In this document: positions 1-17,550 of the stretch, piece by piece | How positions within the stretch are numbered: position 1 is the first letter of the stretch | Layout of the letters: every line of letters begins with the position of its first letter | From: a virus | Strand: one strand, 5' to 3' | Length of the DNA stretch: 61,875 nucleotides | Virus genome (UHGV): UHGV-0856201 | The notes under the pieces: model-generated | Told to the model about the DNA's origin: nothing | Databases searched by the model: none | Seen by the model: the letters and a program-made list of their open reading frames with translations, nothing else | Made by a program: the position numbers and the translations under genes

Positions 1-139
1 TATTCAACAGGAAAACCACCTAATTAGAATTGCCGACCACAAACGGTCACTAACTTCCCTATGTTCTCTAACTTCCTCTTTACATCATTATTATTCATTA
101 GATACATTAGTAATCTGCGTCACAAGGAGGAGTGTCTTA

Positions 140-190
140 TGTGCTATATATTTGAAGACAGTGACGAATGGCTGAGTTTATGCCGCCAGA
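140..190 (+). promoter_or_regulatory. Anellovirus UTR core (TATA-like box plus conserved UTR motif)
   Basis: tatata at 145-150; cgaatggctgagtttatgccgc at 165-186, recognised as the conserved anellovirus UTR element. Confidence 0.6.
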
Positions 191-333
191 CGAAGACGGG
201 ATCACTTCAGTGACTCCAGGCTGAACTTGGGCGGGTGCCGAAGGTGAGTGAAACCACCGAAGTCAAGGGGCAATTCGGGCTAGTTCAGTCTGGCGGAACG
301 GGCAAGAAACTTAATATATATTATTTTACAGAT

Positions 334-618
334 ATGTTCCACAACCCAAACTATGGACACCACCGCCTACAATTGAAAATAACTAACACCTGCATCCAAG
401 TCCACGGATTAACCTGTTCCTGCAACAATCCAGGATTCCACTTACTACAAATTCTAACCACCCAAATAGGAAAAGAACTAAAACCAGAAGAAAAAAATCA
501 AATTAAACAATGCCTTGGAAACCAAGATACTACCGCCGCCGGTGGAGACGACGACCATATTTTTGGAGACCTAGAAGAACTTTTCGAAAAAGATTTTACA
601 GACGCCGATACTGGGTAA
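334..618 (+). CDS. Anellovirus ORF2-like protein
   Basis: ATG at 334 in frame of ORF 235-618; H-x3-C-x-C-x5-H signature (HGLTCSCNNPGFH); overlaps ORF1 start as in anelloviruses. Confidence 0.55.
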   Translation: MFHNPNYGHHRLQLKITNTCIQVHGLTCSCNNPGFHLLQILTTQIGKELKPEEKNQIKQCLGNQDTTAAGGDDDHIFGDLEELFEKDFTDADTG

Positions 619-1619
619 GCAGACGACGCTTTAAAAGAAAATTAAAAAAACTTTTAGTTAAAGAATATCAACCGCATTCTATAAGAAAATGTACTGTTAA
701 AGGACTACTATGTTTATTTCAGACTGATGTACAAAGAATAGGATTTAATTTTGATATGTATGAAGAATCTTTTGTACCAGATAAACTACCAGGTGGAGGA
801 GGCTTTAGCATAAAAAACTTATCATTATACAGTTTATATATAGAACACATAAACGGCCACAACATTTTTACACACTCCAACATCTATTACCCTCTGGTTA
901 GATACTTAGGATGCCAACTAAAATTTTACCAAAGTGCAAATGTAGACTACATAGTAACATACAGCAATACATGGCCATTAGAAAGCAACTTACAAATGTA
1001 CAACACCATGCAACCAGCCATTCACTCACTACAAAAAAACAAAATAATGATACCAGCAAAATCCACACAAAAAAGAAAAAGACCTTATAAAAAAGCATTT
1101 ATACCACCACCAACACAAATGAAATCACAATGGTACTTTGCCGCAGACATAGCAAAAAAACCACTACTAATGCTAAGAACCTCTAGCTGTTCTTTTGATC
1201 ACTGGTACATAGGCACAAGAATGATCAGCACAAACATAACTATATACACATTAAACTCATTAATGATTCAAAACAGACACTGGAATATATCAAACTATCA
1301 ATACTTCTCAAGATACTTAGGAACACAAAAATACTACCTATACAGCACAACACAAACATTTAATGTAATTACAGAACTAGAATTAAAACATGTTATATGT
1401 CTAGGAGACACAAAAAGAAATGTACCAGGAATTTCCTACTGGGACTTATATAAACAAGACCCCACAACAACAGAATTAGAAAAATACAAATCCCAAAAGA
1501 ACTGGGGAAACTGCTTTCATACTAATTATTTACAAGAACATGACCCTGTATTTGCAAGTCAAACAGACTGGGCAACAATAATCACAAAAATAGCAAGCAA
1601 AACCAAAAGACCACAGTAG
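510..1619 (+). CDS. Anellovirus ORF1 (capsid) N-terminal portion, interrupted
   Basis: Arg-rich N-terminus MPWKPRYYRRRWRRRPYFWRPRR; A-rich composition unlike rest of window; stops at 1617-1619, 61 nt before the phage junction. Confidence 0.75.
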   Translation: MPWKPRYYRRRWRRRPYFWRPRRTFRKRFYRRRYWVSRRRFKRKLKKLLVKEYQPHSIRKCTVKGLLCLFQTDVQRIGFNFDMYEESFVPDKLPGGGGFSIKNLSLYSLYIEHINGHNIFTHSNIYYPLVRYLGCQLKFYQSANVDYIVTYSNTWPLESNLQMYNTMQPAIHSLQKNKIMIPAKSTQKRKRPYKKAFIPPPTQMKSQWYFAADIAKKPLLMLRTSSCSFDHWYIGTRMISTNITIYTLNSLMIQNRHWNISNYQYFSRYLGTQKYYLYSTTQTFNVITELELKHVICLGDTKRNVPGISYWDLYKQDPTTTELEKYKSQKNWGNCFHTNYLQEHDPVFASQTDWATIITKIASKTKRPQ

Positions 1620-1684
1620 CAGATTTACCATACACATTTACAGACATACAACTAGTGGAACAAGTAAGATACAACCCATTCCTG

Positions 1685-2029
1685 TCAGTTAACATACTTC
1701 GCGATCAGTTTATCACAGTCCTCGCGACAGGTAGCATACTTAAACAGGTCACTTGCTGCTTCTGCCCGGTAGTCAGTATCAATAGTGTAATGTTCATTGA
1801 CATAGTTATAGGCTGCAAGGTAATTGCTGAACATCCCACTGGTTACCACTTTCGGTTGTCCCCTTACGACCTTACCGTTAAACAGATATGCTATTAGCAA
1901 AATCAGACCACCGATCACAGGACTTGTGAGAAATGCGATAAAGAACCATACACCAGAGTTACGACCTGTTTGTTTGGCAACACCCGCGACAACCAGAGAG
2001 AAAAGAATCCATAAAATAGTGAATAGCAT
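1685..2029 (-). CDS. small membrane protein (phage)
   Basis: 114-aa ORF with hydrophobic segments; RBS aaggagg; first gene downstream of promoter copy at 2050-2100. Confidence 0.5.
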   Translation of the reverse strand: MLFTILWILFSLVVAGVAKQTGRNSGVWFFIAFLTSPVIGGLILLIAYLFNGKVVRGQPKVVTSGMFSNYLAAYNYVNEHYTIDTDYRAEAASDLFKYATCREDCDKLIAKYVN

Positions 2030-2049
2030 GATTATGTCCTCCTTTGTTT

Positions 2050-2100
2050 TGATGTTTGTAGGTTACACGTCCTTGTGTAATCCGTCAAGAATTATTTTAA
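2050..2100 (-). promoter_or_regulatory. conserved phage early promoter (copy 1)
   Basis: plus-strand gtcaagaattatttta at 2084-2099; -35 TTGACG on minus strand with AT-rich upstream element. Confidence 0.6.
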
Positions 2101-2340
2101 ATTATCGTAGACAGGCGGTAAGCCCATTGCAGCCTGTACAGACCGTTTTTCGTATTCCTCCCGAAGTTTCTGAAGTCGTTCAATACCGATGTCACAACCA
2201 CGTATTATATCAGCGCACAGGTCGTTGTAGGTCGCTTCAGATTGCTTGCTGTGTGGGTAATCAACACAGGATGGATCTGCAATAATGACTTTCGGCAGAT
2301 ACGCGACAGTATCGCCCATTGCGTTTTTAAATATCGTCAT
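2092..2340 (-). CDS. hypothetical protein
   Basis: 82-aa ORF in compact minus-strand operon; no recognised motif. Confidence 0.4.
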   Translation of the reverse strand: MTIFKNAMGDTVAYLPKVIIADPSCVDYPHSKQSEATYNDLCADIIRGCDIGIERLQKLREEYEKRSVQAAMGLPPVYDNLK

Positions 2341-2666
2341 AAATACGACCCCACAATTGCAGCACAGTTGACGATCGCTAAACGCGTTGCTTTTTCACGG
2401 TCTTCCCCGTGGCTAACTGGTTGCTTATAACTAACGCCAGTGTCAGGGTTATTAACCGTCACTTCGTTGTCACGAACATCCAGATCCATGTACATGTTAA
2501 CCATCAGACTGAAAGCATCCTCATTACGTGTAAGAGGGTTCCACAGGCGACCATTACCTATATCAATACCTTCGTTTATGTAACGTTCGTCGTACGCGAC
2601 GTAATATTTACCCTGGATTTCAGCAGCCCGTGCTGCGTTGACTAATAAATCACGATTGTTCATCAC
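2337..2666 (-). CDS. hypothetical protein
   Basis: 109-aa ORF, start/stop overlap with neighbours; no confident family. Confidence 0.4.
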   Translation of the reverse strand: MMNNRDLLVNAARAAEIQGKYYVAYDERYINEGIDIGNGRLWNPLTRNEDAFSLMVNMYMDLDVRDNEVTVNNPDTGVSYKQPVSHGEDREKATRLAIVNCAAIVGSYL

Positions 2667-3022
2667 ATGTTCCCCGTTGTACGTTTATATTCTTGAACAC
2701 AGTAATCAAAGTATTCACCATGTGTTTTAACATAATTAATTAGTTCAATTATTACGTCACCGTGGCATGGTTTAGGAGAACAGAAACAAACTAAATCTTT
2801 ACCGTCTAAAGATAAAATATCAGATTTAGTTATGTTTCCTTTCAAACATTCATTCCACAACCATGTTTTATAACGAAATAATGTCGCACCTCGTTCTTCA
2901 TTTTCCGAAAGTTTAAAAGGGTTTGCGAATTTACTTTGTGTTAACCCTTTACCACCGCGACCAATATAAACAGCACCTTCTGGGATTTGTTTACCAATAT
3001 GGTAGAAGTTTAACACTTTCAT
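2663..3022 (-). CDS. DUF4326-family protein
   Basis: Start at internal Met (MKVLNFYHIG); motifs VYIGRGGKG, FANPF, CFCSPKPCHGDV match my recollection of DUF4326. Confidence 0.6.
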   Translation of the reverse strand: MKVLNFYHIGKQIPEGAVYIGRGGKGLTQSKFANPFKLSENEERGATLFRYKTWLWNECLKGNITKSDILSLDGKDLVCFCSPKPCHGDVIIELINYVKTHGEYFDYCVQEYKRTTGNM

Positions 3023-3023
3023 G

Positions 3024-3527
3024 TTACATGTCCCCCGTTGATCCAAACCCGCCATTACGCTGACTATCAACATCTGGTAATTCTTCCACTTCAACCAGGT
3101 TAACAGGTTCGACACGTTCAACCATAAGCTGACAAACACGTTCACCGTCTGCGATAGTCTGTAATTTCTGCCCGTGGTTAGTCAGCGAAACGTAGTATTC
3201 TTCTTTGTAATCACGATCACCGATACCCACACAGTTGATCAGTGATAAACCGTATTTAAGACTCATGCCGGAACGTGGGTAAATTTTAATGCAATATCCG
3301 CTATCAACTGACATTTTCAGACCAGTGGGGATCATAGCGCGGTCGCCGGGCCATAATGCGATTGTTCCTGCAACAACCGGACGTTCCACTTTAGCGCCTG
3401 ATTCTGTGAATATAGTTACCGATTCTTCCCACAGGCAAGCACGAACGTCTAACCCTGCGCTGTCTGGTGTTGCACGTGTCGGAAGTTCAGCGTGGGGTGT
3501 TAGTTTTTTGATATACAGGTTAGTCAT
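3024..3527 (-). CDS. dut: dUTP diphosphatase (dUTPase)
   Basis: Canonical dUTPase motifs: DSAGLDVRA, PRSGMSLKYG, GIGDRDYKEE, RNGGFGSTG. Confidence 0.9.
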   Translation of the reverse strand: MTNLYIKKLTPHAELPTRATPDSAGLDVRACLWEESVTIFTESGAKVERPVVAGTIALWPGDRAMIPTGLKMSVDSGYCIKIYPRSGMSLKYGLSLINCVGIGDRDYKEEYYVSLTNHGQKLQTIADGERVCQLMVERVEPVNLVEVEELPDVDSQRNGGFGSTGDM

Positions 3528-3554
3528 TGTTTGATTCCTCAGTGTGTTTCGTTC

Positions 3555-3605
3555 GTGACAAATGTTAGTGTGACCGCTTGCAATGTGTCAAGAATTATTT
3601 TAAAC
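3555..3605 (-). promoter_or_regulatory. conserved phage early promoter (copy 2)
   Basis: tgtcaagaattattttaaa; -35 TTGACA at 3586-3591 (minus); drives dut operon. Confidence 0.6.
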
Positions 3606-3634
3606 TTCTGTCAACGTTAACCAATGAGGAATAA

Positions 3635-4453
3635 ATGATGTTTGAACATCCGTGGAATATACCTGCATATGATGCTGAAAGTGAAAAACAATCACTTGAC
3701 TATCGAATGAAAACACAACAAGTAGACTGGAGTGAAGCGCCAGACTGGGCTACATGTGTTGTTCTTAATAAGACAACAAACACTTTTGCATGGTCTGACG
3801 GTTCAATGTACGCACCAATTTTAAGAAATCCACCACAAATTATGGAGAATGCTGATGACTTTGAAATCTTTGAAAAACGCTCTTGTGGTCCAGCAACACC
3901 TGTCAAAACAAAACTGTTAATGACACCGAAAGCCCGTGGTAATACTTACGAAGAATTCATTGCGACCGGGTGGAATGACGACCAGTTAGTCGAACATGGT
4001 TATGCTGTTCGCACCAATGATGAAATGACAAAATATAAACAACAGTCATTAGCAGACTTACACCTGGCGCATCTATTCACACCTGTTCAACAACCATCAA
4101 CAGTAACCCGTGCACCTAGACCAACACCACCTTCAAATTGTCGGTGTACATTCACACCTGTTCAACAACCATCAACAGCGTCTGACTTGCTGAAACAGGC
4201 TGAACAGCTACTGACTGAACGTGGTAAGCAGTACGACACGTCTGGTCAGGAACGTTCGTCAGCTAAAATCGTTGCTGCGTTTAACACAATTACCGGGCGC
4301 GACTTAACACCGGGTGAAGGGTGGTTGTTTCTGATGTTGTTAAAAGCGGTTCGTTTCTATTCCAACACTGAAACACTACATCGTGACAGTCTGGAAGACC
4401 TGATTAGCTACGCTGCATTACACGCAGAGGAATATCTTAACGATGAACGGTGA
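3635..4453 (+). CDS. hypothetical protein with internal direct repeat and conserved C-terminal domain
   Basis: 272 aa; repeat FTPVQQPST twice; motif TYEEFIATGWNDDQLVEHGYAV shared with ORF 33970-34881. Confidence 0.5.
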   Translation: MMFEHPWNIPAYDAESEKQSLDYRMKTQQVDWSEAPDWATCVVLNKTTNTFAWSDGSMYAPILRNPPQIMENADDFEIFEKRSCGPATPVKTKLLMTPKARGNTYEEFIATGWNDDQLVEHGYAVRTNDEMTKYKQQSLADLHLAHLFTPVQQPSTVTRAPRPTPPSNCRCTFTPVQQPSTASDLLKQAEQLLTERGKQYDTSGQERSSAKIVAAFNTITGRDLTPGEGWLFLMLLKAVRFYSNTETLHRDSLEDLISYAALHAEEYLNDER

Positions 4454-4625
4454 ACAGGCATTCGACCTTCTGGTTAAATACGACATTATTGTTATTCACT
4501 GTGACCGTGAACAAATCGTTTTCACAGACGATCTTCGTTATGAAGAACCTTATGACGGTGATAAACGGTCTGCCACGATTCGATTAATCGAACGTGTGGC
4601 ACGTGACAGAGGGGAACTATTATAA
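4443..4625 (+). CDS. hypothetical protein
   Basis: 60-aa ORF overlapping neighbours by a few nt (coupled). Confidence 0.35.
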   Translation: MNGEQAFDLLVKYDIIVIHCDREQIVFTDDLRYEEPYDGDKRSATIRLIERVARDRGELL

Positions 4626-4819
4626 TGGCTCAAACTATTTCTGAATTACTACCCACCGTTTATGGCAACGTGACAGAACTTGCCAGGCGGATTGGGTGTA
4701 ACAAAGCGACAGTTTATAAATATATGGATGACACCAACGGTGAATTTCACGCGGTGGTGAATGGTAAGTTGATGGTCAGACCAGGTTTTAAAGGACGTTA
4801 TACTCGTGACAAAAGATGA
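4625..4819 (+). CDS. small helix-turn-helix DNA-binding protein
   Basis: 64 aa; HTH-like segment TELARRIGCNKATVYKY. Confidence 0.45.
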   Translation: MAQTISELLPTVYGNVTELARRIGCNKATVYKYMDDTNGEFHAVVNGKLMVRPGFKGRYTRDKR

Positions 4820-4963
4820 AAAATTATTACGTGAACTTGAAATAGACTACGAACGAGCACAAAAAGCGTTACAGTTTCTGGAAGAACAGATCCGCGAAGT
4901 TAAGAACCGCATTCAGGGAACTGAAAAACGTAATCTTCCACGCCCGTAACACGTGATATAATC

Positions 4964-4992
4964 GGCCTCAGTGTGTTAACTGAGGCTTTTTT
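4964..4992 (+). terminator. rho-independent terminator
   Basis: hairpin ggcctcag...ctgaggc followed by TTTTTT. Confidence 0.7.
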
Positions 4993-5952
4993 ATGGCTAC
5001 TAAAGACCCATACCCGGATATTTCAGACAAGTATGACGCTCGCATTCGCGAAGCACTTGACGTTGTGTGGGAAAACGTGCGTCGTAGTGAGTCGTTAGCT
5101 AACCTGGAATACATCATTGAAACTCAGGGTATTGCCGGGCTACTCCCCATTCTTGAAACACTCCCTGATGAACTTAGTGCACAGTTGCGCCCGGTTATTG
5201 AAGACGCGATCGCCGAATCAGGTCGTGTAGTCGTTCAGGTTTTACCGAAAGCGGCTGTGACAGGTCCGGTTGTGTTCAGTCTGGTCACCCCACAGGTCAG
5301 TACATACATCAACAACTATGTCGGACAACTGATCCGTGAAGTCAGTGACGAAACAGTCAAAGCTGTTCAGATTGCTGTTAACCAGGGTGTGGTAACCGGA
5401 CGAAATCCGCGTCAGATAGCCCGTGATTTTCGATCATCAATAGGGTTAACCACACGGCAGGAAATGACGGTTCAACGTCTGCGATCAGCACTGGAAAAAG
5501 GTGAAGCAGGTTATGTGAACAGTCTGACCACTGTTACAGACAGTGCAAAGAACGCTGTAAGTGCCGGGAAACTATCACAGGCGAAGATTGACCAGATAAT
5601 CGAACAGACACGCTTGCGTTACGTAAAACAGCGTACAGAGACAATAGCGCGTACTGAATCACTTCGTGCTGTATCAGTTGGTCAGGATCAGGCAATACGT
5701 CAGGGACAGATTACCGGGGCTATTAGTAATGAATTGCTGAAGCGCTGGTTATATAGAAAGGATGGTCGGACACGTGATGCGCATATTTCCACGGGTGAAA
5801 CGAACGGTTGGATACCAATGGACAGACCGTTTTCAACGCCGTTAGGACCACTCATGTTTCCTCGTGATCCTAACGGTAGTGCCGCGAACGTGATTAATTG
5901 TCGTTGCAGGGTTGCTTATTCTCTCCCTCAAGATATAAATGTTATCCCGTGA
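4993..5952 (+). CDS. head morphogenesis protein (Mu F-like / SPP1 gp7-like)
   Basis: 319 aa; C-terminal NVINCRCRV motif and overall pattern typical of Mu-F family minor head proteins. Confidence 0.65.
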   Translation: MATKDPYPDISDKYDARIREALDVVWENVRRSESLANLEYIIETQGIAGLLPILETLPDELSAQLRPVIEDAIAESGRVVVQVLPKAAVTGPVVFSLVTPQVSTYINNYVGQLIREVSDETVKAVQIAVNQGVVTGRNPRQIARDFRSSIGLTTRQEMTVQRLRSALEKGEAGYVNSLTTVTDSAKNAVSAGKLSQAKIDQIIEQTRLRYVKQRTETIARTESLRAVSVGQDQAIRQGQITGAISNELLKRWLYRKDGRTRDAHISTGETNGWIPMDRPFSTPLGPLMFPRDPNGSAANVINCRCRVAYSLPQDINVIP

Positions 5953-6865
5953 TTATACGTATTAGAGTGGTTATATTTGGATTCCATTTTAACCACTCTG
6001 TACAACCATCGAACCCGGTTAATCCTGCAGATTCAAAATGAGAATGAAAATCTTTTTCAAGTGAACGAATGGTTTTACCATCAGAATTATATATTTCAAT
6101 AACATTGAATTCAAAAGGTGTTCTTTTCTTCAATATTTTTATTCTATTTTCAACATTGTTGCTAATACCTATTTTAACATAACTACCGCATAGAGATCTT
6201 AAAACATATAAGCTAGCTTTGTTTTTGATTTTAAAACCTGTTGCAGCGCAACCTGCACAACGTCTGTCAGTATGTAATAATGTTGTAGGTGTTGTTATAA
6301 ATTCACCATGTTTTTGACATTTAATTTTTATCTTACTGTATTGATTAACATACCCATTGACCCAACCCAAAAATTCATAATTTAATGACAAACATTTTTC
6401 ATTTATCTCTTTTTCTCTTATATGTAATGGTGTCTTTTTATTTTCAAAATAACATTTCTTACAGAAACTTTTATTTATAGTAATGTTGTTACCGGAAGAC
6501 ACCCACTGACCATGTTTAGTACATTCTATTAATGCTTTTGTGCGAACACCATGATAATTTTCAATCCATTTTACAAATTTATAACCTCGCGAGTTACAAA
6601 TATTAGTGATACGTTTTTCATATTCTTTTTGGTCTATACTATTTTTTAGTGCTATGTTCTCATTACTACATTTCTTACAAAAATTTCTACCATTCACTAT
6701 CAAATCAGAGGATGTTTCCCACTCACCATGTTTTTGACAATGCATTATTAGTCTACTTGATGCATTCTTGTAACCATTTAAGAATCTGACAAAATGATAA
6801 ATAGTACCTTTGCAAATTTCTGAAATCTCTGAAAGTCTTTCATGTTCTGTTTTTCGTTTAGTCAA
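5942..6865 (-). CDS. T5orf172-domain protein with Zn-ribbon repeats (homing-endonuclease-like), paralog 1
   Basis: Repeated CxKHGxW...CKKC modules; C-terminal YVLRS...KIGIS...GFDGCTEWL typical of T5orf172 domain. Confidence 0.65.
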   Translation of the reverse strand: MTKRKTEHERLSEISEICKGTIYHFVRFLNGYKNASSRLIMHCQKHGEWETSSDLIVNGRNFCKKCSNENIALKNSIDQKEYEKRITNICNSRGYKFVKWIENYHGVRTKALIECTKHGQWVSSGNNITINKSFCKKCYFENKKTPLHIREKEINEKCLSLNYEFLGWVNGYVNQYSKIKIKCQKHGEFITTPTTLLHTDRRCAGCAATGFKIKNKASLYVLRSLCGSYVKIGISNNVENRIKILKKRTPFEFNVIEIYNSDGKTIRSLEKDFHSHFESAGLTGFDGCTEWLKWNPNITTLIRIITG

Positions 6866-6941
6866 AATAAAACCTCCTGTTGTTTAACTCAATATTAGCA
6901 ACAGGAGGTTAAGTGGTCAAGCAAGATATTGGTTCGTTGGG

Positions 6942-7208
6942 TTAATCAGGTTCACGCCAGTCAAGAGGTCGCACATCACATAACAGACGAACATTATCTT
7001 CAAATTTTATGTTTACCCTGTGATGTGCCGTATCATTTTCATAAACAGAGGGCCATATTTCATAACCCTGAACAGTTCGTGCCACCCACTTGTTAATGCT
7101 TGCCAGATGGATCAACACTTCACAACCAACGGGAGGAAGGTTTTTACCATCCCAAATCTGTTTCATTCCCATAGCGGTTACTCCTGTTTCTCCCCGCAGA
7201 ACGGACAA
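6942..7208 (-). CDS. hypothetical protein
   Basis: 88-aa ORF; no recognised motif. Confidence 0.4.
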   Translation of the reverse strand: MSVLRGETGVTAMGMKQIWDGKNLPPVGCEVLIHLASINKWVARTVQGYEIWPSVYENDTAHHRVNIKFEDNVRLLCDVRPLDWREPD

Positions 7209-7453
7209 TAAGACATTTTGATGTTGGTTTCCAGGCGTGTGAAGTTCTTCGCCAGTTCACCGTTTTTCTTTTTAGCGCGGTATGTAAGACGATATTTCAA
7301 CATGACGTGTGTTTTACCAGACGTCAGACCGAAACACTGATTATCCCAGCCAACTTTATCAAACAGGTTAGTGCTGACTTCCGAACCTACTGGTACTTTT
7401 TCCATCAGACGTTTTTGAAGTTCGTCACCAACTTTTTTCATGCAATCACACAT
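7178..7453 (-). CDS. hypothetical protein with C-terminal Zn-binding motif
   Basis: 91 aa; CDC near N-term and CPFCG at C-term. Confidence 0.4.
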   Translation of the reverse strand: MCDCMKKVGDELQKRLMEKVPVGSEVSTNLFDKVGWDNQCFGLTSGKTHVMLKYRLTYRAKKKNGELAKNFTRLETNIKMSYCPFCGEKQE

Positions 7454-7617
7454 TATGCATACCTCGATAGGCGTTTTAATTTAACGATCAACCTTGTGAC
7501 TTTACTCCAGTCAGATTCAGTAAAGTCGTCCACATCTTTAGCCCATAACTCATTAACATGTCGTGGGTTATATGGTTCTTTCTTGACGGGCGGTTTCCTT
7601 TTCTTTTTACCCATAGG

Positions 7618-8169
7618 TTATAATCCAAGTAAAAGTTTAAGCGCACGTTTACGAACATCATCCTGTTTACGCAAAGCAGTTAATTCTTTTTGCAGATTTT
7701 CTTTCTCTTCCCGTAACTTTTTCATGTCTACCAACAACAAATCATAGGTCTTACGATCGACTTCAATTTCGTTACGTAGTTCGTCATTTTGTTTGTGCAA
7801 TTCTCCGATTTCACACTGTAGTTGCAGTAATGGCTGTGGTTGATGCGTCTGTTGCAACTTCTTTAATTTGGCTAATACAGCTTTGCGAACGGCTTTAGAT
7901 TCACGCATACCCACAAGAAGCATTTGATCCATGTTTAGATCGACCACTTCAAACGGTTTTCTATTACCACCTCTTCCCTGAAGTTTGGGTGTGAAAAGTT
8001 TCGTAACCAAAACTTGACCTTCTAATTCATCCTTAACTCTGGCTAAGAAATCATTATGACGAACCCAGACTTCCTCACCTGCAGCCACACGTGCTGGGTT
8101 GATAAAATTCTTCAAGAAATCCAGACTGGATATTGTGAATTCGTCATCAACATTCATAACTTCAAACAT
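7618..8169 (-). CDS. hypothetical protein with coiled-coil C-terminus
   Basis: Start at MFEVMN (8169), just after leader peptide; heptad-rich C-terminus. Confidence 0.45.
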   Translation of the reverse strand: MFEVMNVDDEFTISSLDFLKNFINPARVAAGEEVWVRHNDFLARVKDELEGQVLVTKLFTPKLQGRGGNRKPFEVVDLNMDQMLLVGMRESKAVRKAVLAKLKKLQQTHQPQPLLQLQCEIGELHKQNDELRNEIEVDRKTYDLLLVDMKKLREEKENLQKELTALRKQDDVRKRALKLLLGL

Positions 8170-8174
8170 AACCG

Positions 8175-8243
8175 TCAACCTCTTACTATTCCTACAATTA
8201 CAGGTACTGCGAAAATCATGAAAGCCAGTATGTAGTAAATCAT
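8175..8243 (-). CDS. small hydrophobic leader peptide (22 aa)
   Basis: MIYYILAFMIFAVPVIVGIVRG; RBS aaggag 8 nt upstream; directly downstream of promoter copy 3. Confidence 0.3.
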   Translation of the reverse strand: MIYYILAFMIFAVPVIVGIVRG

Positions 8244-8264
8244 CGCGTATCTCCTTTTTTCTTC

Positions 8265-8316
8265 CCGTTAACCACAAGATAGTCGTGTCGGTGTAATCCG
8301 TCAAGAATTATTTTAA
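8265..8316 (-). promoter_or_regulatory. conserved phage early promoter (copy 3)
   Basis: ccgtcaagaattattttaaag; -35 TTGACG 8299-8304 (minus), 17-nt spacer, -10 tatctt. Confidence 0.6.
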
Positions 8317-8319
8317 AGA

Positions 8320-8600
8320 TACAGCTAATACAGAACGTGTACTAACTATACATGGTTTTACATAGGTTTCATGATTTTGAGTTACAGCTAATACAGATTC
8401 TGTATTAGTAGATCATAGATTCATAGATTTCGTCATGTTTATTTTTTAACCAACCCCTTTCTATCTTATTCTTTTTATTATCTTTTTATAGATAACATAG
8501 AAAACATAGATAAATAGAAGAGTAGTATAAGTAGTAAAAGTTGCTGCAAGTAGGAGAGGTTTAAAAGGTATAGGGGGTCGCATACTTCCCATGAATCTAT
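8320..8600. other. AT-rich divergent intergenic region with repeats (candidate origin/regulatory hub)
   Basis: Flanked by outward-facing promoters; repeated acagctaataca; ~90-bp block also present at 47697-47785. Confidence 0.4.
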
Positions 8601-8645
8601 ACGTAAAATAATTCTTGACGGATTACACCGACACAACTACCCTGT
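8600..8645 (+). promoter_or_regulatory. conserved phage early promoter (copy 4)
   Basis: aaaataattcttgacggattacaccgac; -35 TTGACG at 8615-8620. Confidence 0.6.
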
Positions 8646-8673
8646 GGTTAAGAAAACAAGAAGGGATGAATGT

Positions 8674-9189
8674 ATGGATCCGAACATCAGAGTTGCTACA
8701 GACGAATTCATTCGTCGCGCCCGTAAAATTCACGGTGATCGTTACGACTACTCATTCAGCATTGTTGAAGATAGTTCCAGCACCGTGGTTATTATTGATC
8801 GTGAAACTAACACAGTGTTCTTTCAGGTCGTCTCTGAACATCTGGACGGTGTTGAACCAGTAACCACTGCTGTTGAACCAGTAACCACTGCTGTTGAACC
8901 AGTAACCACTGCTGTTGAACCAGTAACGACTACTGTTGAACCAGTAACGACTACTGTTGAACCGGTAACGACTGCTGTTGAACCAGTAACCACTGCTGTT
9001 GAACCAGTAACGACTACTGTTGAACCGGTAACGACTGCTGTTGAACCGGTAACGACTGCTGTTGAACCGATCAAGAATCTTTCTGAGATATTCGGTAACG
9101 TTGTAAACAGCGTGTATCACCAGTGCAATTATTCATCTGAAATGTTAGAATTTAGTCATGTTAAAACAATACGAGGACAATCCCCGTGA
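8674..9189 (+). CDS. repeat-containing protein (VEPVTTA x ~10)
   Basis: N-terminal FIRRARKIHGDRYDYS shared with T5orf172 paralogs; central 21-bp in-frame tandem repeats. Confidence 0.5.
   Translation: MDPNIRVATDEFIRRARKIHGDRYDYSFSIVEDSSSTVVIIDRETNTVFFQVVSEHLDGVEPVTTAVEPVTTAVEPVTTAVEPVTTTVEPVTTTVEPVTTAVEPVTTAVEPVTTTVEPVTTAVEPVTTAVEPIKNLSEIFGNVVNSVYHQCNYSSEMLEFSHVKTIRGQSP
8851..9070 (+). repeat. 21-bp tandem repeat (~10 units) inside CDS
   Basis: gttgaaccagtaac(c/g)act(g/a)ct repeated head to tail. Confidence 0.9.
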
Positions 9190-9596
9190 TTAACGTAAAA
9201 GTTAATAAGGTTGACAACTCACTACGTATGGTATTCGGTTGGGGTAGCATCTGTAAAAAACGTAATCAGGAGACAGGCCAGTTAGAAATTTACACAGACA
9301 CGGATAACGAGCAATTTCCCGAGGATGTCACTCTGAAAGCATGGTTGGACTTCATGAATTCTGATCAGCGCATTATGGATAATATGCACAATGAACAACC
9401 TGTTGGGAAAGTTGTGTTTGCGTTTCCGATGACTGAAGACATTGCGGCAAGTTTTGGGCTGGTTGATAAACTGGATCAGACAGGCGTCATTGTTGGTACG
9501 TTGATAACTGATGACGAAGTTTTGAAAAAGTTTCAGACTGGTGAATATACGGGATATAGTATCGGTGGGACTGCATATTATGAGGATGTGGAATAA
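9186..9596 (+). CDS. putative prohead protease
   Basis: 136 aa; position before scaffold/capsid genes; weak resemblance to XkdF-like proteases. Confidence 0.35.
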   Translation: MINVKVNKVDNSLRMVFGWGSICKKRNQETGQLEIYTDTDNEQFPEDVTLKAWLDFMNSDQRIMDNMHNEQPVGKVVFAFPMTEDIAASFGLVDKLDQTGVIVGTLITDDEVLKKFQTGEYTGYSIGGTAYYEDVE

Positions 9597-10861
9597 TGCG
9601 TACAGATGGTACTAATCATTTACGCCGCGCTAAATCGATGAAGATCGGTTTTCTGTCCGGCGTGACAAAACCTGCTCACGAGGGAGCAAATGCTCTTGTT
9701 CTTAAATCACATTCAGAACCGCCTGCTGTTGTTCTTTTAAAGTCAACATTTAGTGCAGCACTGGCTGAAAAAGAACTTGAACAGAAAGTTCGCGATTTCC
9801 TCTCTAATTCGTGGATGTTGAACGATGCGCTTTATGAAGCAGCAGAGGATATTGCAAAAGATGATTCTATTACCGATAAACAAGCAGCATTGCGTGACGC
9901 GGTAAATGAATATATTATAACGTTGCAACAGGCCGCTGGTATTTCGATGAATAAAGCGAAAGGTGGTAAAACTGAAGACGGTGAAGTTTTCCCGGCATCT
10001 GATTATGCATATGTACCAGATCCAGAAAAACCTTCAACCTGGAAACTTCGTTTAACAGCCACCCCTGGCGGTGAACCTGATGCGCGTATTGTAGGCGCTG
10101 CACTTGCTGCATTAGGTCCGGGTTATCGCGGTAACAAAGTTGAAATCCCTGAAGCCGATTTAGCAGGTGTGAAAAACAAAGTCCGATCCGCGTGGAAAAA
10201 ATTACACCCGGACCAGGAAGTACCTCAAGTTTTAAAAACGGCAGAGGAAATCGAAATGTCCGAACTGGAACTGGAAAAATACAAAGCCCTGGCTGAGATG
10301 AACGACGTCCATAAGGCGTATCATAATTCTCTGCCTGAATCTGATCAGGAAGCATTCCGTAAAATGGATGCGACTGCTCGCGATGTCCTCGTGACGATGG
10401 CTAAACAGGCTGATGAATCGTTTACCACGATTGCGGGTCAGGTTGTTCAGAAATCTGTAGCTGGTCCGATGTATGACGTTCTGAAATCTCAGGACGAACA
10501 ACTTCGCAAAGCACAGACTGAAGCGGCACTGGCGAAAGCTAAAGAAACCGTGAACGCTGATTTCGCACACATTCCGGGTGAAATGGTACAGAAAACCCAG
10601 ATGGTCATGACTCTTGAGCGTTTGCCGGAAGCGGATCGTAACTTCCTGGTTGAAAAACTCAAACAGGCCGATGAACTCTGGAAAGCACGTAAAGAGCCAG
10701 CAGCGCCGAATGGCAGTGGTAAAGGTTCCAGTGCACTGGAAGACATGATCAACGAATGGCTGAAAGCAAATCCGGGTAAAACACGCACCCAGGCTATGCA
10801 GGCAGTTTCTGCAACTAAAAAAGGTCAGGAAGCAATCGAAGCGATGCGAGGTGACGAATAA
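9596..10861 (+). CDS. putative scaffolding protein
   Basis: 421 aa, A/E/K-rich and coiled-coil-like; upstream of decoration and major capsid genes. Confidence 0.45.
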   Translation: MRTDGTNHLRRAKSMKIGFLSGVTKPAHEGANALVLKSHSEPPAVVLLKSTFSAALAEKELEQKVRDFLSNSWMLNDALYEAAEDIAKDDSITDKQAALRDAVNEYIITLQQAAGISMNKAKGGKTEDGEVFPASDYAYVPDPEKPSTWKLRLTATPGGEPDARIVGAALAALGPGYRGNKVEIPEADLAGVKNKVRSAWKKLHPDQEVPQVLKTAEEIEMSELELEKYKALAEMNDVHKAYHNSLPESDQEAFRKMDATARDVLVTMAKQADESFTTIAGQVVQKSVAGPMYDVLKSQDEQLRKAQTEAALAKAKETVNADFAHIPGEMVQKTQMVMTLERLPEADRNFLVEKLKQADELWKARKEPAAPNGSGKGSSALEDMINEWLKANPGKTRTQAMQAVSATKKGQEAIEAMRGDE

Positions 10862-11271
10862 TGGCTAAGAACAGCAAAATCTACTGGAACTATGAGCGCC
10901 CGACCCGTGCCGTTGCATCGGTGGCTATTTCGGCAGGTGTTGGTCTTGTTCTGGATACCAGTTTAGGTGACACTAATCAGTGTGTACCTAAATACAAACT
11001 CCCAACAGCTGGCGGTCGCATCGACGGTGTAGCTGTTGACGATGCCACTGCTGGTGTATTCTTCGACCTGGTAAACGAAAAAGAAAAATTTGTACCAGTA
11101 AAAGCATCTGCAGCGTTCGGTACAGGTGTCGAACTTGCTGTTGGTGCTGACGGACGATTCCAGACCGCTACTGCTGAACAACTGGTCGTGGCTATTTCTC
11201 AAACTGGTGCCACTGCTGAAAACCAGGTAGCTACCGCATTACTTATTGCACCGTATTCTAAAGGAGCATAA
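10861..11271 (+). CDS. putative head decoration protein
   Basis: 136 aa Gly/Ala/Val-rich; between scaffold and major capsid, as for lambda D. Confidence 0.4.
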   Translation: MAKNSKIYWNYERPTRAVASVAISAGVGLVLDTSLGDTNQCVPKYKLPTAGGRIDGVAVDDATAGVFFDLVNEKEKFVPVKASAAFGTGVELAVGADGRFQTATAEQLVVAISQTGATAENQVATALLIAPYSKGA

Positions 11272-11274
11272 CCG

Positions 11275-12294
11275 ATGAGTTACAAACAGAATTTTCGCGA
11301 CGTTGGCGCACCAGATACATTCCTGTCTAACTTTTCTGTAAGTTACTGGCAGGATACGTCACTGTTTGTCGGTACTCGTTATTTCCCGGTAGTTCCTGTT
11401 AACCAGGCTGCTGGTAAATTCCTGACTTACCCGAAAGGTTATTTCGGTCGTCCGGTTAACTCCAAACGTGCCGAAGATGGTGTTGCTAATACTATTGGTT
11501 ACAAAACCAAAAACCAGGGTTACACCGTTGATGACGATGCGATCCGCATCTTTATTTCTGACAAAAAACGTGCAAACGTTCAAAATGGTCAGCAACTGGA
11601 TATGGAAGCGTCAGCAGTAACCACAGATGCGTTGCTGATCAACAAAGAAGTGGATTTTGCTGAAAAATTCCTGACCGCTGGTAAATGGGGTCTTGATTTC
11701 AAGGGTAAAGACGCGTCTCCGTCCACGGGCGAATTCCTGAAATGGTCTAATGCGAATGCCGATCCGATTGGTGATATCCTGTCACGTCGTGTTGCGTTCT
11801 CTCTGGCATCCGGTGGTCGTCGCTGGAACAAAGCGCTGATGACGCTGGACGTGTATGACGCACTGACCCGTAGCCCGGCTGTTATTGACCGCATTAACGG
11901 TGGTTCTACCACTCAGAATCCGGGGATCGTGACTAAACAGGCACTGGCTGCACTGCTGGAAGTTGACGAATTGGAAATCATGCAGTCCGTGGTCAACATG
12001 GCTGCTGATGGCGTTGAAGACAGTAACGGCAATCCGCTGTCAGACTTCCAGTTTGCTAAAACTGGTGTACTGATGCTCAACTATGTTGAACCGACTGTTG
12101 GCAATATGAAACCTGTTGCGGCTGCGGGCTTCGTGTGGAACGAGTTCATCGGTCTGGGCGTTAACAACGGTCCGTCTATCCGTACCTATCCGGGTGTCGA
12201 AGGCCGTCGTGGTAATTTCGTTGAAGCGGAATTTGCCATTGATGTTCAGATGGTTGCACCTGACCTGGGCGTTCTGTTCTACGACGCGGTTTAA
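11275..12294 (+). CDS. major capsid protein
   Basis: 339 aa; gene order protease-scaffold-decoration-capsid; followed by terminator. Confidence 0.65.
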   Translation: MSYKQNFRDVGAPDTFLSNFSVSYWQDTSLFVGTRYFPVVPVNQAAGKFLTYPKGYFGRPVNSKRAEDGVANTIGYKTKNQGYTVDDDAIRIFISDKKRANVQNGQQLDMEASAVTTDALLINKEVDFAEKFLTAGKWGLDFKGKDASPSTGEFLKWSNANADPIGDILSRRVAFSLASGGRRWNKALMTLDVYDALTRSPAVIDRINGGSTTQNPGIVTKQALAALLEVDELEIMQSVVNMAADGVEDSNGNPLSDFQFAKTGVLMLNYVEPTVGNMKPVAAAGFVWNEFIGLGVNNGPSIRTYPGVEGRRGNFVEAEFAIDVQMVAPDLGVLFYDAV

Positions 12295-12313
12295 TAACAA
12301 CTGTGGTATCATT

Positions 12314-12341
12314 AAGGGGTGGCTTATGCTGCCCCTTTTTT
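12314..12341 (+). terminator. putative rho-independent terminator after capsid gene
   Basis: aagggg...cccctt stem followed by T-run. Confidence 0.5.
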
Positions 12342-12356
12342 CATGAGGTTAAAATC

Positions 12357-12710
12357 ATGCGTAATTCATATGATCCGTCACTGAAATATGTTTTCACCCG
12401 TCCGATACTGTGGAACGGTAAACAGATGTCCGCTGGCGATAAAGTATCAACATCAAAAGCTACCCCGGCTGTTTTAAATGCCCTTGTGCGTATGCGCCAC
12501 ATTGAACCAGCTACTGCGACTGTTGAAGAACCAGTGATTGTAGCAACCGAAGAATCGGCATCAACCACATCTGCTGAAATCCGACGTGACGCGCCAAAAA
12601 CCTATAACGTTTATGTTATGGGTATGCCGATGAATTCAGAATCGTTTAGTAGTAAAAGTGCCGCTGCTGAATGGTGTGAATCACAAGGCTTGACATATAA
12701 CTATTCTTGA
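12357..12710 (+). CDS. hypothetical protein
   Basis: ATG at 12357 with RBS gaggt; 117 aa. Confidence 0.45.
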   Translation: MRNSYDPSLKYVFTRPILWNGKQMSAGDKVSTSKATPAVLNALVRMRHIEPATATVEEPVIVATEESASTTSAEIRRDAPKTYNVYVMGMPMNSESFSSKSAAAEWCESQGLTYNYS

Positions 12711-13392
12711 CCTATTGTTAGTTGTAGATAGTTTTCGTGGCGACTTTGCGGACTTTTTAGAAACTGACCACAAAGATAAATGCAAACGAAGAACGTTTTC
12801 TGATGGCGGCGTAATAGCCTGTAAGTCAGCAAGGTCTTCCGATTCCTTGTAAATAAATTCGGCGCACTGGCCCGGTGTGATTAATAATGGGCACCCACGA
12901 ATGAGAGTACTGTGATTGATCGTCGTTCTTGCGCGCAAAGTCTGCTCGAAGACAGTATTCTCATTCGTGGGTAACAACGGGCATATCGCCTTAGTAAATC
13001 CCTCAAGGGTGCGGCGAATAATCCGGTAATGTCGTTGCCGTAAGCCACACGAAACGTGGCACACAACAGGTAAGAGCATTGGGTAATGTAAAGCTGTGCT
13101 GCGACGATTACCATACATCTCAGTGCTCTTATCGTTGTGGTGAATTGCAGTTCTCAGAAACAACCAGAAGATAAGCGCCTGGCACTGCAACCAAACACTC
13201 GCTGATAAGGAGGTGATCCTTATCTTGCTGGCGGGAAAGCCGCAAATCGTGGGTAAAGCATGTTGTGAAACATCCTGAACTGCGTGTCGTTTTACATAAC
13301 TGGTTATTCACGTGTCACGCATAGGGGTATGTTGGGACGTCAGGTGTGGATGACCAGTTATGTAAAACCCTCATTATCACCCAGAGCCATTT
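12711..13392. other. long non-coding structured region inside structural module
   Basis: No convincing ORF on either strand; 19-bp inverted repeat 12894-12912/12952-12970; hairpin gataagga-ggtga-tccttatc. Confidence 0.4.
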
Positions 13393-13418
13393 GCCGTCTG
13401 TTTAAGACGGCTTTTTTT
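13393..13418 (+). terminator. rho-independent terminator
   Basis: gccgtctgtttaagacggc followed by TTTTTTT. Confidence 0.65.
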
Positions 13419-13457
13419 CGTGCTAATATAACGAAAACATTTCTCACAGGTGATCAC

Positions 13458-13868
13458 ATGGCTATTACAGTTGAAGGTATTCGTTATTTGATCAGTGTCC
13501 CTGATGTTACTGATGAACAAATTCAGTGGTACATTGACAACGGTTATACAAATCCTCTCAGTATTTGCGTCGCTCTCTGTGATTATATGGCGTCTATTGC
13601 CAGCAACGATACTGACATTAAAGTAGGTCCGATCTCACTCAGCAGTAGTCAGTCAGCAGACGCCTGGAATAAACTTAAAAAAGATTTTATTTTACGTATT
13701 AATACTGGCGCTGATTCAGGTGGCGGTTTGTTAGGTGGTTTTATGGGTGTCGGTGGAGCTACATTAACTGGCGCTGGTATGCAACCTGCTATTCAGCGTG
13801 GTCAGTTCGACAACCCACCTGTAACACTTGAAAGCGGTGGTCGTGCACTTAACGAAGGTGAACGGTGA
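13458..13868 (+). CDS. hypothetical structural protein (head-tail region)
   Basis: ATG 13458 after terminator; 136 aa, Gly-rich C-terminus. Confidence 0.4.
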   Translation: MAITVEGIRYLISVPDVTDEQIQWYIDNGYTNPLSICVALCDYMASIASNDTDIKVGPISLSSSQSADAWNKLKKDFILRINTGADSGGGLLGGFMGVGGATLTGAGMQPAIQRGQFDNPPVTLESGGRALNEGER

Positions 13869-16012: not shown

Positions 16013-16048
16013 ACTACGAATGATTGCAATCAAACGAGGCTTAGAACA

Positions 16049-17549: not shown

Positions 17550-17550
17550 G

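What the first reader, a model, noticed from the sequence alone, without database searches (positions are those of the whole stretch)
1..1680. Anellovirus-like circular genome (~3.1 kb) present as two pieces
Recognised elements are the conserved UTR motif cgaatggctgagtttatgccgc, an ORF2 with H-x3-C-x-C-x5-H, an ORF1 with Arg-rich N-terminus, an AATAAA signal and a GC-rich region with three gggggctccgccccc repeats. The window ends overlap (ttgccgaccacaaacg at 30-45 and 61857-61872), which implies a circular molecule of roughly 3.1 kb once 1681-60414 is removed. The genus cannot be assigned by eye.
Basis: partly seen in the sequence, partly recalled or inferred. Interest (0 to 1): 0.45.

Follow-up and report, generated by a model that had tools for sequence, protein, structure and literature searches.

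The report
Chimeric scaffold: two anelloviruses plus coliphage
The two ends of this window are real human torque teno mini virus (anellovirus) DNA, but they come from two different viruses stuck onto a complete E. coli phage genome by an assembly artefact, so there is no single 3.1 kb split genome and nothing biologically unusual.

Summary
They match Pfam TT_ORF1 and TT_ORF2-like and the solved Betatorquevirus LY1 capsid.

The flanks are not two halves of one genome. Piece A (1-1679) is 99% identical in protein and 91% in DNA to one lineage. Piece B (60415-61875) is 100% identical to a different lineage. Full ORF1 genes of the two lineages share only 58-60% of their bases, below the 69% species limit. 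On nine reference ORF1s, B starts 56-68 residues before the point where A ends. The shared 16-mer at the window ends is a conserved UTR element, sometimes present twice in tandem. It is not a circular overlap.

The middle is a complete 58,381 bp Sashavirus-like coliphage. It is closed by a 127 bp overlap, followed by 100 N and a 127 bp phage k-mer. This is the signature of a k=127 de Bruijn scaffold. Both junctions are blunt. The phage and piece B both occur at 100% identity, on separate contigs, in run ERR975294, probably from the Malawian infant gut virome data set. There B continues natively across the junction.

Verdict: ordinary viruses in an artefactual arrangement. One oddity remains: the A|B join would be in frame, with 7-9 nt of microhomology.

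The parts
1..1679 (+). Piece A: 5' part of a Betatorquevirus genome (UTR, ORF2, N-terminal 58% of ORF1). It starts a few bases after the point where the GC-rich block ends in relatives.
   Evidence: 91% DNA identity to L001 over 177-1679, ending exactly at 1679. The UTR aligns with L006/L007. Pfam TT_ORF1 E=4.8e-79. PDB 8CYG/8V7X LY1 capsid E about 1e-120.
30..45 (+). Conserved UTR 16-mer TTGCCGACCACAAACG (copy in piece A)
   Evidence: The same element occurs, with 0-1 mismatch, in L004, L006-L008 and L013. It is doubled in tandem, the second copy more diverged, in L004, L012 and L013.
145..186 (+). TATA-like TATATAT (145-151) and the conserved anellovirus UTR motif CGAATGGCTGAGTTTATGCCGC (165-186)
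   Evidence: The motif is identical in L004 and L006-L008.
334..618 (+). ORF2 (94 aa) with H-x3-C-x-C-x5-H
   Evidence: translation. Pfam TT_ORF2-like scores 24.4 bits against a cut-off of 24.3.
510..1679 (+). ORF1 N-terminal part (Arg-rich arm, jelly roll, start of spike) up to the RYNP motif. It is broken by single-base insertions at 1592 and 1610, giving a stop at 1617-1619.
   Evidence: With the two A's removed it reads 99.3% identical to P0001 through ...VEQVRYNP.
1679..1680 (.). Junction J1: anellovirus A ...AACCCAT | TCCTGTCAG... phage. The join is blunt, with no shared bases.
   Evidence: A relatives continue ACAAAGACGAC. The phage natively has ...AGTCTTC before TCCTG.
1680..60187 (+). 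Complete Sashavirus-like (9NA-like) E. coli siphophage with a unit length of 58,381 bp. The last 127 bp (60061-60187) repeat the first 127 bp (1680-1806).
   Evidence: exact 127 bp repeat. (96-97% identity to vB_EcoS_AVIO78A, Sashavirus BDX09P1 and KarinMuster_Bas82). (collinear across the join). (100% identity to contigs of ERR975293/4).
60188..60287 (.). Scaffold gap of exactly 100 N
60288..60414 (+). Exact 127 bp copy of phage 48532-48658, inside the small terminase gene (48058-48708). It is the k-mer that anchors the exit edge.
60414..60415 (.). Junction J2: phage ...TTCCTGAAG | ACAAACAAC... anellovirus B. The join is blunt, with no shared bases.
   Evidence: Native B has ...CTAACACAAT before ACAAAC. 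The phage natively continues GTGCAAC.
60415..61875 (+). Piece B: 3' part of a second, different Betatorquevirus (C-terminal 52% of ORF1, downstream ORFs, poly(A) signals, GC-rich repeats, first UTR unit)
   Evidence: 100% identical over 1358 nt to L068 (ERR975294). 98% identical to CYGL01002366.1 and 95% to the B-type contig L014 (near-complete, 2661 nt). Pfam TT_ORF1 E=7.5e-39.
60415..61454 (+). ORF1 C-terminal part of virus B. It begins 56-68 residues upstream of the homologous point where piece A ends, and it has its own GNPF..YL and RYNPNKDQG motifs.
61511..61663 (+). Conserved 50-aa 3' ORF. The exact product is on record in 10 other anellovirus contigs.
61659..61722 (+). Two AATAAA signals (61659-61664 and 61717-61722)
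61755..61837 (+). GC-rich region: a 28-nt unit x3 carrying GGGGGCTCCGCCCCC
   Evidence: The same triple repeat is present in L004 and L006-L008.
61857..61872 (+). Conserved UTR 16-mer (copy in piece B). Its context, GGAAACCACAAAATTTGCA-, is of the B/L004/L013 type, not the A type.

Best explanation
The window is a chimeric assembly scaffold, not a biological molecule.

Its core is a complete 58,381 bp Sashavirus-like E. coli phage genome that assembles as a circle. Two tails are attached to that circle:
- an entry tail made of the 5' part of one torque teno mini virus (Betatorquevirus A, 1-1679);
- an exit tail made of the 3' part of a second, different Betatorquevirus (B, 60415-61875).

Shown by the data:
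- The phage circle closes on an exact 127 bp overlap. It is followed by exactly 100 N and then by an exact 127 bp phage segment taken from 48532-48658.
- Both phage-anellovirus junctions are blunt.
- Each of the four partner sequences is continuous across its junction point in independent genomes.
- A and B overlap in ORF1 coordinates and belong to different lineages.
- The phage and B occur at 100% identity on separate contigs of the same sequencing run.

Inferred:
- The assembler was a de Bruijn graph program with k=127 (SPAdes family).
- A few chimeric reads from an amplified infant gut virus-particle library linked the very abundant phage to abundant small circular anelloviruses.
- The path-extension or loop-traversal step walked in through one chimeric branch, went round the phage cycle, and left through the other.
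- Both tails stop at the GC-rich/UTR region, where anellovirus assemblies usually break.

The anellovirus pieces themselves work as ordinary TTMV genomes do. They have a UTR promoter region, ORF2, the ORF1 capsid protein with an Arg-rich arm, jelly roll and spike, poly(A) signals and a GC-rich region.
For: Scaffold structure:
- Exact 127 bp circular overlap, 100 N, and an exact 127 bp phage copy.
- The middle is 96-97% identical to Sashavirus-type coliphages and collinear across both junction sites.
- Both junctions are blunt.
- Two uncorrected 1-nt insertions lie within 88 nt of J1, so they sit on the same 127-mers as the junction.

The flanks are anellovirus:
- Pfam TT_ORF1 covers profile positions 3-301 in A and 355-525 in B.
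- On PDB LY1 capsid 8CYG, A aligns to residues 1-351 and B to 325-667. LY1 is a Betatorquevirus.

A and B are different viruses:
- A is 99.3% identical in protein and 91% in DNA to P0001/L001, while B is 43% and 67% to that same genome.
- B is 100% identical to L068 and 95% to L014. The 5' half of L014 is only about 66% identical to A.
- A-type and B-type ORF1 genes are 58-60% identical in DNA, against the ICTV species limit of 69%.
- A's end and B's start overlap by 56-68 residues on all nine references tested (alignment A1).

Independent assemblies keep the parts apart:
- Native B continues upstream of the junction in run ERR975294.
- The same phage at 100% identity is on separate contigs of ERR975293, ERR975294 and CYGL01000636.1.
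- The CYGL data set also holds other scrambled anellovirus contigs (L012).
Against: - No reads were available, so the low support of the junctions is inferred, not measured.
- The source record was not found in any searchable collection.
- The link between 127 bp overlaps, a 100 N gap and SPAdes behaviour rests on my memory of that software. A literature search did not confirm it.
- The two tails are co-oriented, complementary halves.
- If the insert is excised exactly, the tails join in frame at 7-9 nt of microhomology. Only 0.16% to 0.02% of random position pairs reach that. The artefact model does not predict this.
Confidence: 0.85

Rival explanations
1. The two flanks belong to one hybrid anellovirus molecule of about 3.1 kb. 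It has an A-type 5' half and a B-type 3' half, a crossover at ATACAAA, and an in-frame duplication of about 65 aa in the ORF1 spike. It could be a natural recombinant or an amplification chimera. Only the phage insertion would be artefactual.
For: - Exact excision of 1680-60414 gives an in-frame join...VEQVRYNP-Y-KQQLEQHAGNPF....
- There are 7-9 nt of microhomology between the A and B break points (p about 0.002 to 0.0002).
- The pieces are co-oriented, complementary halves.
- In L012 a B-type UTR unit is followed directly by an A-like unit, so window end to window start could be contiguous.
Against: - The 100%-identical B strain continues natively upstream of the break in ERR975294.
- A relatives continue natively past 1679.
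- The phage junctions would have to fall exactly on the crossover, about 7 nt out of 3092.
- ORF1 would still be broken by the insertions at 1592 and 1610.
- The composite is 130-185 nt longer than relatives.
- No contig with the A|B join was found.
Confidence: 0.08
2. The juxtaposition was made after assembly. Contigs were merged or scaffolded by another pipeline step, or the record was deliberately concatenated. No chimeric reads would be needed.
For: There is a 100 N spacer of conventional length. The record is absent from every collection searched.
Against: The two exact 127 bp segments sit precisely at the first and last phage bases next to the junctions, as graph vertices would. A merger based on end overlaps needs shared sequence, and the junctions share none.
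Confidence: 0.05
3. It is a real physical recombinant. For example, phage DNA in a virus particle has its 48659-60060 segment replaced by, or is joined to, anellovirus DNA.
For: Only the bare topology supports this: both junctions lie on the same phage strand, so a phage(...48658)-B...A-(1680...)phage molecule is conceivable. J2 lies in the small terminase gene, where pac sites often lie.
Against: - The scaffold itself contains the intact phage across both sites.
- The replaced segment would include the large terminase and the portal.
- J2 has the wrong polarity for a pac-initiated left end.
- The anellovirus parts come from two species and are not joined to each other in the window.
- Anelloviruses replicate in human nuclei and the phage replicates in E. 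coli.
- Independent assemblies of the same run keep them apart.
Confidence: 0.02

Closest known systems
[quoted passage not shown]
   Same: - UTR motif, ORF2 zinc-finger-like motif, Arg-rich ORF1 with jelly roll and spike, RYNP motif, 3' ORFs, AATAAA signals and a triple GC-rich repeat.
- ORF1 of A scores 407 bits and ORF1 of B scores 243 bits against LY1.
- Relatives are 2.9-2.96 kb circles.
   Different: Neither genome is complete here. A lacks its 3' half and has two frame-breaking insertions. B lacks its 5' half. The two are different species-level lineages (58-60% ORF1 DNA identity between their full-length relatives).
Sashavirus / 9NA-like E. coli and Salmonella siphophages (vB_EcoS_AVIO78A, KarinMuster_Bas82, vB_EcoS_PJ16, Sashavirus BDX09P1)
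   Same: Genome size of 58.4 kb, matching gene order, and 96-97% identity over about 75% of the first 20 kb. It assembles as a circle, as expected of a circularly permuted phage (my inference from 9NA-type biology).
   Different: About a quarter of the sequence compared is not shared at megablast level (mosaic accessory genes). Nothing else is unusual.
Chimeric contigs from amplified (MDA) viromes assembled with de Bruijn graph assemblers
   Same: Unrelated abundant templates are joined at arbitrary points. The k-length overlaps mark graph vertices. Small circular ssDNA viruses are over-represented after MDA (PMC6819614). Other scrambled anellovirus contigs occur in the same public project (L012).
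   Different: Junctions formed by polymerase template switching normally show microhomology, by my recollection of the MDA literature. Here both junctions share no bases, which fits end-to-end joining of fragments better. The mechanism of read chimerism is therefore not established.

Membership tests
Anelloviridae | ORF1 capsid protein with an Arg-rich N-terminus and the TT_ORF1 domain | tested here: met
   Pfam PF02956 E=4.8e-79 for A and 7.5e-39 for B. The homologues found are all TT_ORF1 proteins.
Anelloviridae | ORF2 with the conserved H-x3-C-x-C-x5-H motif | tested here: met
   The motif VHGLTCSCNNPGFH appears in the translation. Pfam TT_ORF2-like scores 24.4 bits against a cut-off of 24.3, only just above threshold. 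The W eight residues upstream of the full W-x7-H form is absent.
Anelloviridae | Conserved UTR block and GC-rich region | tested here: met
   CGAATGGCTGAGTTTATGCCGC and the triple GGGGGCTCCGCCCCC repeat are identical in related complete genomes.
Betatorquevirus (TTMV) | ORF1 groups with Betatorquevirus references; genome about 2.9 kb | tested here: met
   The best solved-structure match is the Betatorquevirus LY1 capsid. Named hits are 'TTV-like mini virus'. Related circles are 2907 nt (L006-L008) and about 2960 nt (L013). No phylogeny was built.
   B starts 56-68 ORF1 residues before A ends on nine references and on LY1. The doubly covered stretch is only 49% identical in DNA.
   A is 99% and B 43% identical to P0001. 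B is 53% and A 35% identical to P0057. B-type genomes have a 5' half about 66% identical to A. The native B 5' sequence occurs in the same run.
   Only a conserved 16-mer is shared and its flanks differ. The element is tandemly doubled in L004, L012 and L013. For comparison, real circular contigs show exact overlaps of 30-55 nt (L006-L008) and the phage here shows 127 nt.
   Insertions at 1592 and 1610 give a stop at 1617-1619.
Sashavirus-like (9NA-like) coliphage | High DNA identity and collinearity with described members; complete genome | tested here: met
   96-97% identity to E. coli Sashavirus-type phages, with the same order of portal, head, tail and terminase genes. The 58,381 bp unit is closed by a 127 bp overlap.
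k=127 de Bruijn (SPAdes-type) scaffold with loop traversal | k-length exact overlaps at graph vertices and a fixed-length N spacer | tested here: met
   Two exact 127 bp segments sit flush with the junctions, with a 100 N run between them. That these values are SPAdes conventions is from memory and was not verified.
k=127 de Bruijn (SPAdes-type) scaffold with loop traversal | Junctions supported by only a few chimeric reads | not testable with these tools

The most novel reading that the evidence does not exclude
The scaffold reflects a real DNA molecule from a virus particle, in which coliphage DNA is covalently joined to human anellovirus DNA. The anellovirus part would itself be an A/B hybrid formed at ATACAAA microhomology. 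That would mean physical recombination between a eukaryotic ssDNA virus and a bacteriophage in the infant gut.
Probability: 0.02. Interest if true: 0.7.

Novelty: already known. Interest (0 to 1): 0.1.

Why it matters
The value is mainly for quality control. A 62 kb 'viral contig' that starts and ends with anellovirus sequence could be read as a giant or phage-interrupted anellovirus, as a phage carrying eukaryotic virus genes, or as a 3.1 kb novel genome after in-silico excision. Any of these would put a false hybrid ORF1 into databases.

The case gives a simple recognisable signature of such scaffolds: a circular genome with a k-length overlap, a fixed N spacer and a k-length anchor, flanked by blunt joins to unrelated abundant templates. 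Biologically, the parts are ordinary: two torque teno mini viruses and an E. coli phage, probably from an infant gut virome that has already been mined for anelloviruses.

Tried and rejected
- **Locating the source record.** I searched the two junction sequences in viral contigs, and J1 also in metagenome contigs and genome contigs. There were no hits.
- **Looking for a natural A|B hybrid.** The virtual junction AACCCATACAAASAACAAC gave 48 hits. None is anellovirus by blastn or tblastx, so they are chance 19-mers.
- **Third protein search.** A junction-spanning hybrid peptide returned nothing at all, not even the 99% relative. The result is uninformative.
- **The search for related loci.** Piece B in IMG/VR found no relatives.
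- **Anellovirus flank against GenBank phages.** No match.
- **Exact-protein look-ups for piece A.** Both ORF2 forms and the truncated ORF1 were tried. None is on record, so I could not show strain A in the same run.
- **Target-site duplication.** TTCCTG occurs at both junctions, but TCCTG is native phage sequence at both places and is absent from native A and B. I rejected this idea.
- **Junctions as natural phage DNA ends.** J2 lies in the small terminase gene, but the phage sequence retained is on the wrong side for a pac-initiated end. J1 is in an ordinary intergenic spot downstream of the portal gene. I rejected this idea.
- **Restriction or type IIS sites at the break points.** By eye, I found no convincing site.
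- **Literature.** I found no confirmation that SPAdes writes 100 N. The Reyes 2015 paper (PMC4586842) and PMC4710368, which I recalled as Lim et al. 2015, are not held.
- **Rfam and tRNA scans.** Nothing found.
Full report
**1. Observation**

- the UTR motif CGAATGGCTGAGTTTATGCCGC (165-186);
- an ORF2 (334-618) with H-GLT-C-S-C-NNPGF-H;
- an ORF1 starting at 510 with an Arg-rich N-terminus;
- AATAAA at 61659 and 61717;
- three GGGGGCTCCGCCCCC repeats at 61758, 61785 and 61813;
- the 16-mer TTGCCGACCACAAACG at 30-45 and 61857-61872. These are its only two copies in the window, with none expected by chance.

The boundaries are right to within a base.

**2. Anatomy of the window**

| Coordinates | Content |
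|---|---|
| 1-1679 | Anellovirus piece A |
| 1680-60187 | Phage. The last 127 bp (60061-60187) exactly repeat 1680-1806, giving a unit of 58,381 bp |
| 60188-60287 | Exactly 100 N |
| 60288-60414 | Exact 127 bp copy of phage 48532-48658 |
| 60415-61875 | Anellovirus piece B |

**3. The flanks are anellovirus, genus Betatorquevirus**

- Pfam TT_ORF1 matches A (E=4.8e-79, profile positions 3-301) and B (E=7.5e-39, profile positions 355-525). ORF2 just passes the TT_ORF2-like cut-off.
- Against all solved structures, the only hits are the capsid of anellovirus LY1 (8CYG, 8V7X). E is about 1e-120 for A and 4.5e-71 for B.
- LY1 is a Betatorquevirus with a 672-aa ORF1 and a genome of about 2.9 kb (PMC11341859).
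- The named database relatives are 'TTV-like mini virus'.
- Related complete contigs are circles of 2907 nt (L006-L008, closed by exact 30-55 nt overlaps) and about 2960 nt (L013).

**4. The flanks are not two halves of one genome**

(a) They belong to different lineages.
- A is 99.3% identical in protein and 91% in DNA to P0001/L001, right up to base 1679. B is only 43% and 67% identical to that same genome.
- B is 100.0% identical over 1358 nt to Logan contig ERR975294_39 (L068), 98% to CYGL01002366.1 (L013), and 95% to the near-complete (2661 nt) B-type contig L014.
- The 5' half of L014 is only about 66% identical to A where it aligns at all.
- Full ORF1 genes of the A type (L001) and B type (L014) are 58-60% identical in DNA. 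That is below the 69% ICTV species limit (PMC12721403).

(b) They overlap in ORF1 coordinates.
- On each of nine reference ORF1s, B starts 56-68 residues before the point where A ends. On P0001, for example, A ends at residue 307 and B starts at 242.
- The multiple alignment shows each piece with its own GNxF..YL and RYNP motifs.
- On LY1, B starts at residue 325 while A aligns to 351 and beyond.
- The doubly covered stretch is 49% identical in DNA.

(c) The composite is too long. Measured motif to motif it is 3092 nt, 130-185 nt longer than relatives. The excess is of the order of the duplicated ORF1 stretch, about 170-205 nt.

(d) The end 'overlap' is a conserved UTR element.
- It occurs once in L006-L008 and twice in tandem in L004, L012 and L013.
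- Its flank at the window end is of the B/L004/L013 type. Its flank at the window start is of the A/L007 type.
- In L013 the native B sequence continues past the window's last base with something different from the window's start.

(e) ORF1 of A is broken. Single-A insertions at 1592 and 1610, absent from three close relatives, shift the frame.

**5. The middle is an ordinary, complete coliphage**

- The first 20 kb is 96-97% identical over 73-76% of its length to Escherichia phages vB_EcoS_AVIO78A and KarinMuster_Bas82 and to Sashavirus BDX09P1. It is 92% identical to Salmonella phage Sasha.
- The entry point (1680) is an intergenic spot between two small minus-strand genes just downstream of the portal gene.
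- The exit point (48658) is 50 nt before the end of the small terminase gene at 48058-48708.
- Reference phages and JGI contig L018 run straight through both points, and so does the window's own phage copy.

**6. The junctions**

- J1 reads A ...AACCCAT | TCCTGTCAG... phage.
- J2 reads phage ...TTCCTGAAG | ACAAACAAC... B.

The native continuations are ACAAAGACGAC after A...AGTCTTC before the phage at J1, GTGCAAC after the phage at J2, and ...CACAAT before B. Comparison with these shows no shared bases at either junction.

**7. Provenance**

- Phage proteins looked up by exact sequence led to contigs of ERR975293 and ERR975294 that are 100.000% identical to the window over 4764, 2712 and 3104 nt. 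They also led to NCBI CYGL01000636.1, which is 99.95% identical over 7266 nt.
- Piece B at 100% identity is in ERR975294. There ORF1 runs on natively upstream of the junction (...INDLHIELTQ-YKQQLEQHAGNPF...).
- WGS project CYGL is the gut virome of Malawian infants with severe acute malnutrition (Reyes et al. 2015). It has already been mined for hundreds of anelloviruses (PMC12721403).
- The link from the ERR975 runs and the window to that data set is inferred only from shared sequence.
- That study used MDA-amplified virus-particle DNA. This is from my memory; the paper is not held.
- MDA favours small circular ssDNA genomes (PMC6819614).
- Another CYGL contig (L012, 7.3 kb) carries anellovirus UTR, ORF1 and ORF2 segments in both orientations. 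Scrambled anellovirus contigs therefore exist in that project.

**8. How the object most likely arose**

Shown:
- The repeated 127-mers begin at the first phage base after J1 and end at the last phage base before J2. Branching vertices of a k=127 de Bruijn graph would sit exactly there.
- The circle closes on itself.
- A fixed 100 N spacer separates the closed loop from the exit edge.

Inferred:
- The assembler was a SPAdes-family program. By my recollection, 127 is its largest k and 100 N is its spacer when it traverses a loop with one entrance and one exit.
- It started from the long, deep phage edges. After closing the cycle it could only extend through two side branches created by chimeric reads.
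- It then followed those branches along anellovirus A backwards and anellovirus B forwards. Both stopped at the GC-rich/UTR region, where anellovirus assemblies usually break.
- The two uncorrected insertions lie within 88 nt of J1, on the same 127-mers as the junction. That fits a branch supported by very few reads.

I put 0.85 on this explanation.

**9. What the artefact model does not explain**

- Excising 1680-60414 exactly gives an in-frame join, ...VEQVRYNP-Y-KQQLEQHAGNPF....
- The native A and B genomes share ATACAAA (window B and L068) to ATACAAAGA (L001 against L014) at the two break points. Only 0.16% to 0.02% of random A/B position pairs reach that. This test was made post hoc.
- The tails are also co-oriented, complementary halves.

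I rate it at 0.08 for four reasons:
- native B exists in the same run;
- the phage junctions would have to coincide with the crossover;
- the hybrid ORF1 would carry a 65-aa duplication and two frameshifts;
- no such join was found elsewhere.

A real phage-anellovirus recombinant molecule rates about 0.02, and post-assembly concatenation about 0.05.

**10. Comparison with what is known, and verdict**

- The flanks meet the tested defining features of Anelloviridae/Betatorquevirus.
- The middle meets those of Sashavirus-like coliphages.
- The claim of one circular genome fails four tested features: abutting coordinates, same lineage, terminal overlap and intact ORF1.
- Nothing here is a new kind of element. 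The viruses are ordinary members of known groups, probably from a data set already described, and their arrangement is an assembly artefact.

Interest is 0.1. The practical lesson is a recognisable signature for chimeric 'viral' scaffolds.

Noticed in passing
window 1592 and 1610: Two single-A insertions relative to three close relatives (L001-L003) break ORF1 of piece A 88 and 70 nt before the chimeric junction. They are probably read errors carried on the chimeric branch, but they could mark a defective genome.
   Followed up: partly
window 1679|60415 (virtual join): Exact excision of the phage gives an in-frame A|B ORF1 join at 7-9 nt of microhomology (ATACAAA / ATACAAAGA). Only 0.16% to 0.02% of random position pairs reach that. 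It is unexplained by the artefact model.
   Followed up: partly
window 8850-9068 and 46790-46907: The phage carries two arrays of 21-nt tandem repeats: 10.4 copies at 94% matches, and 5.6 perfect copies. They could be iteron-like or protein-binding arrays. Their function was not examined.
   Followed up: no
window 34123-34277 (also 26527-26658): There is a perfect 30-nt x5.2 tandem repeat in the phage. CYGL01000636.1 (L073) shows one indel somewhere in its 7.3 kb alignment spanning this region, and self-similar sub-alignments at the array, so the copy number may vary. There is also a 62-nt x2.1 repeat at 26527-26658.
   Followed up: no
window 6001-7000, 14001-15000, 47001-48000: The phage has low-GC islands (0.31-0.36) against a background of about 0.44. 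They are probably mosaic accessory genes.
   Followed up: no
L012 (NCBI CYGL01001062.1, 7.3 kb; first 5362 nt fetched): This public contig of the Malawian infant virome project holds at least three anellovirus UTR segments and several ORF1/ORF2 pieces in both orientations. It is another chimeric anellovirus contig. L013 (3671 nt) is longer than one genome unit and is built from two B-type variants 94-98% identical to piece B.
   Followed up: partly
L004, L012, L013 versus L006-L008 (UTR just after the GC-rich block): The roughly 35-nt UTR unit GGAAA(A)CCAC...ATTGCCGACCACAAAC is single in some betatorquevirus lineages and doubled in tandem in others. This can mimic a terminal overlap in partial contigs.
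   Followed up: partly
L018 (JGI 3300045988, Ga0495776_016607, 58,013 nt): A closely related phage (91-97% DNA identity, identical small terminase protein) is present in an unrelated JGI metagenome without any anellovirus flank.
   Followed up: partly
(tool behaviour): The word-indexed protein search missed B-type ORF1s that are 95-100% identical (found later by exact look-up of a neighbouring 50-aa ORF). It also returned nothing for a 224-aa query that is 99% identical to P0001 over half its length. Negative results from that tool should not be trusted for anelloviruses.
   Followed up: yes
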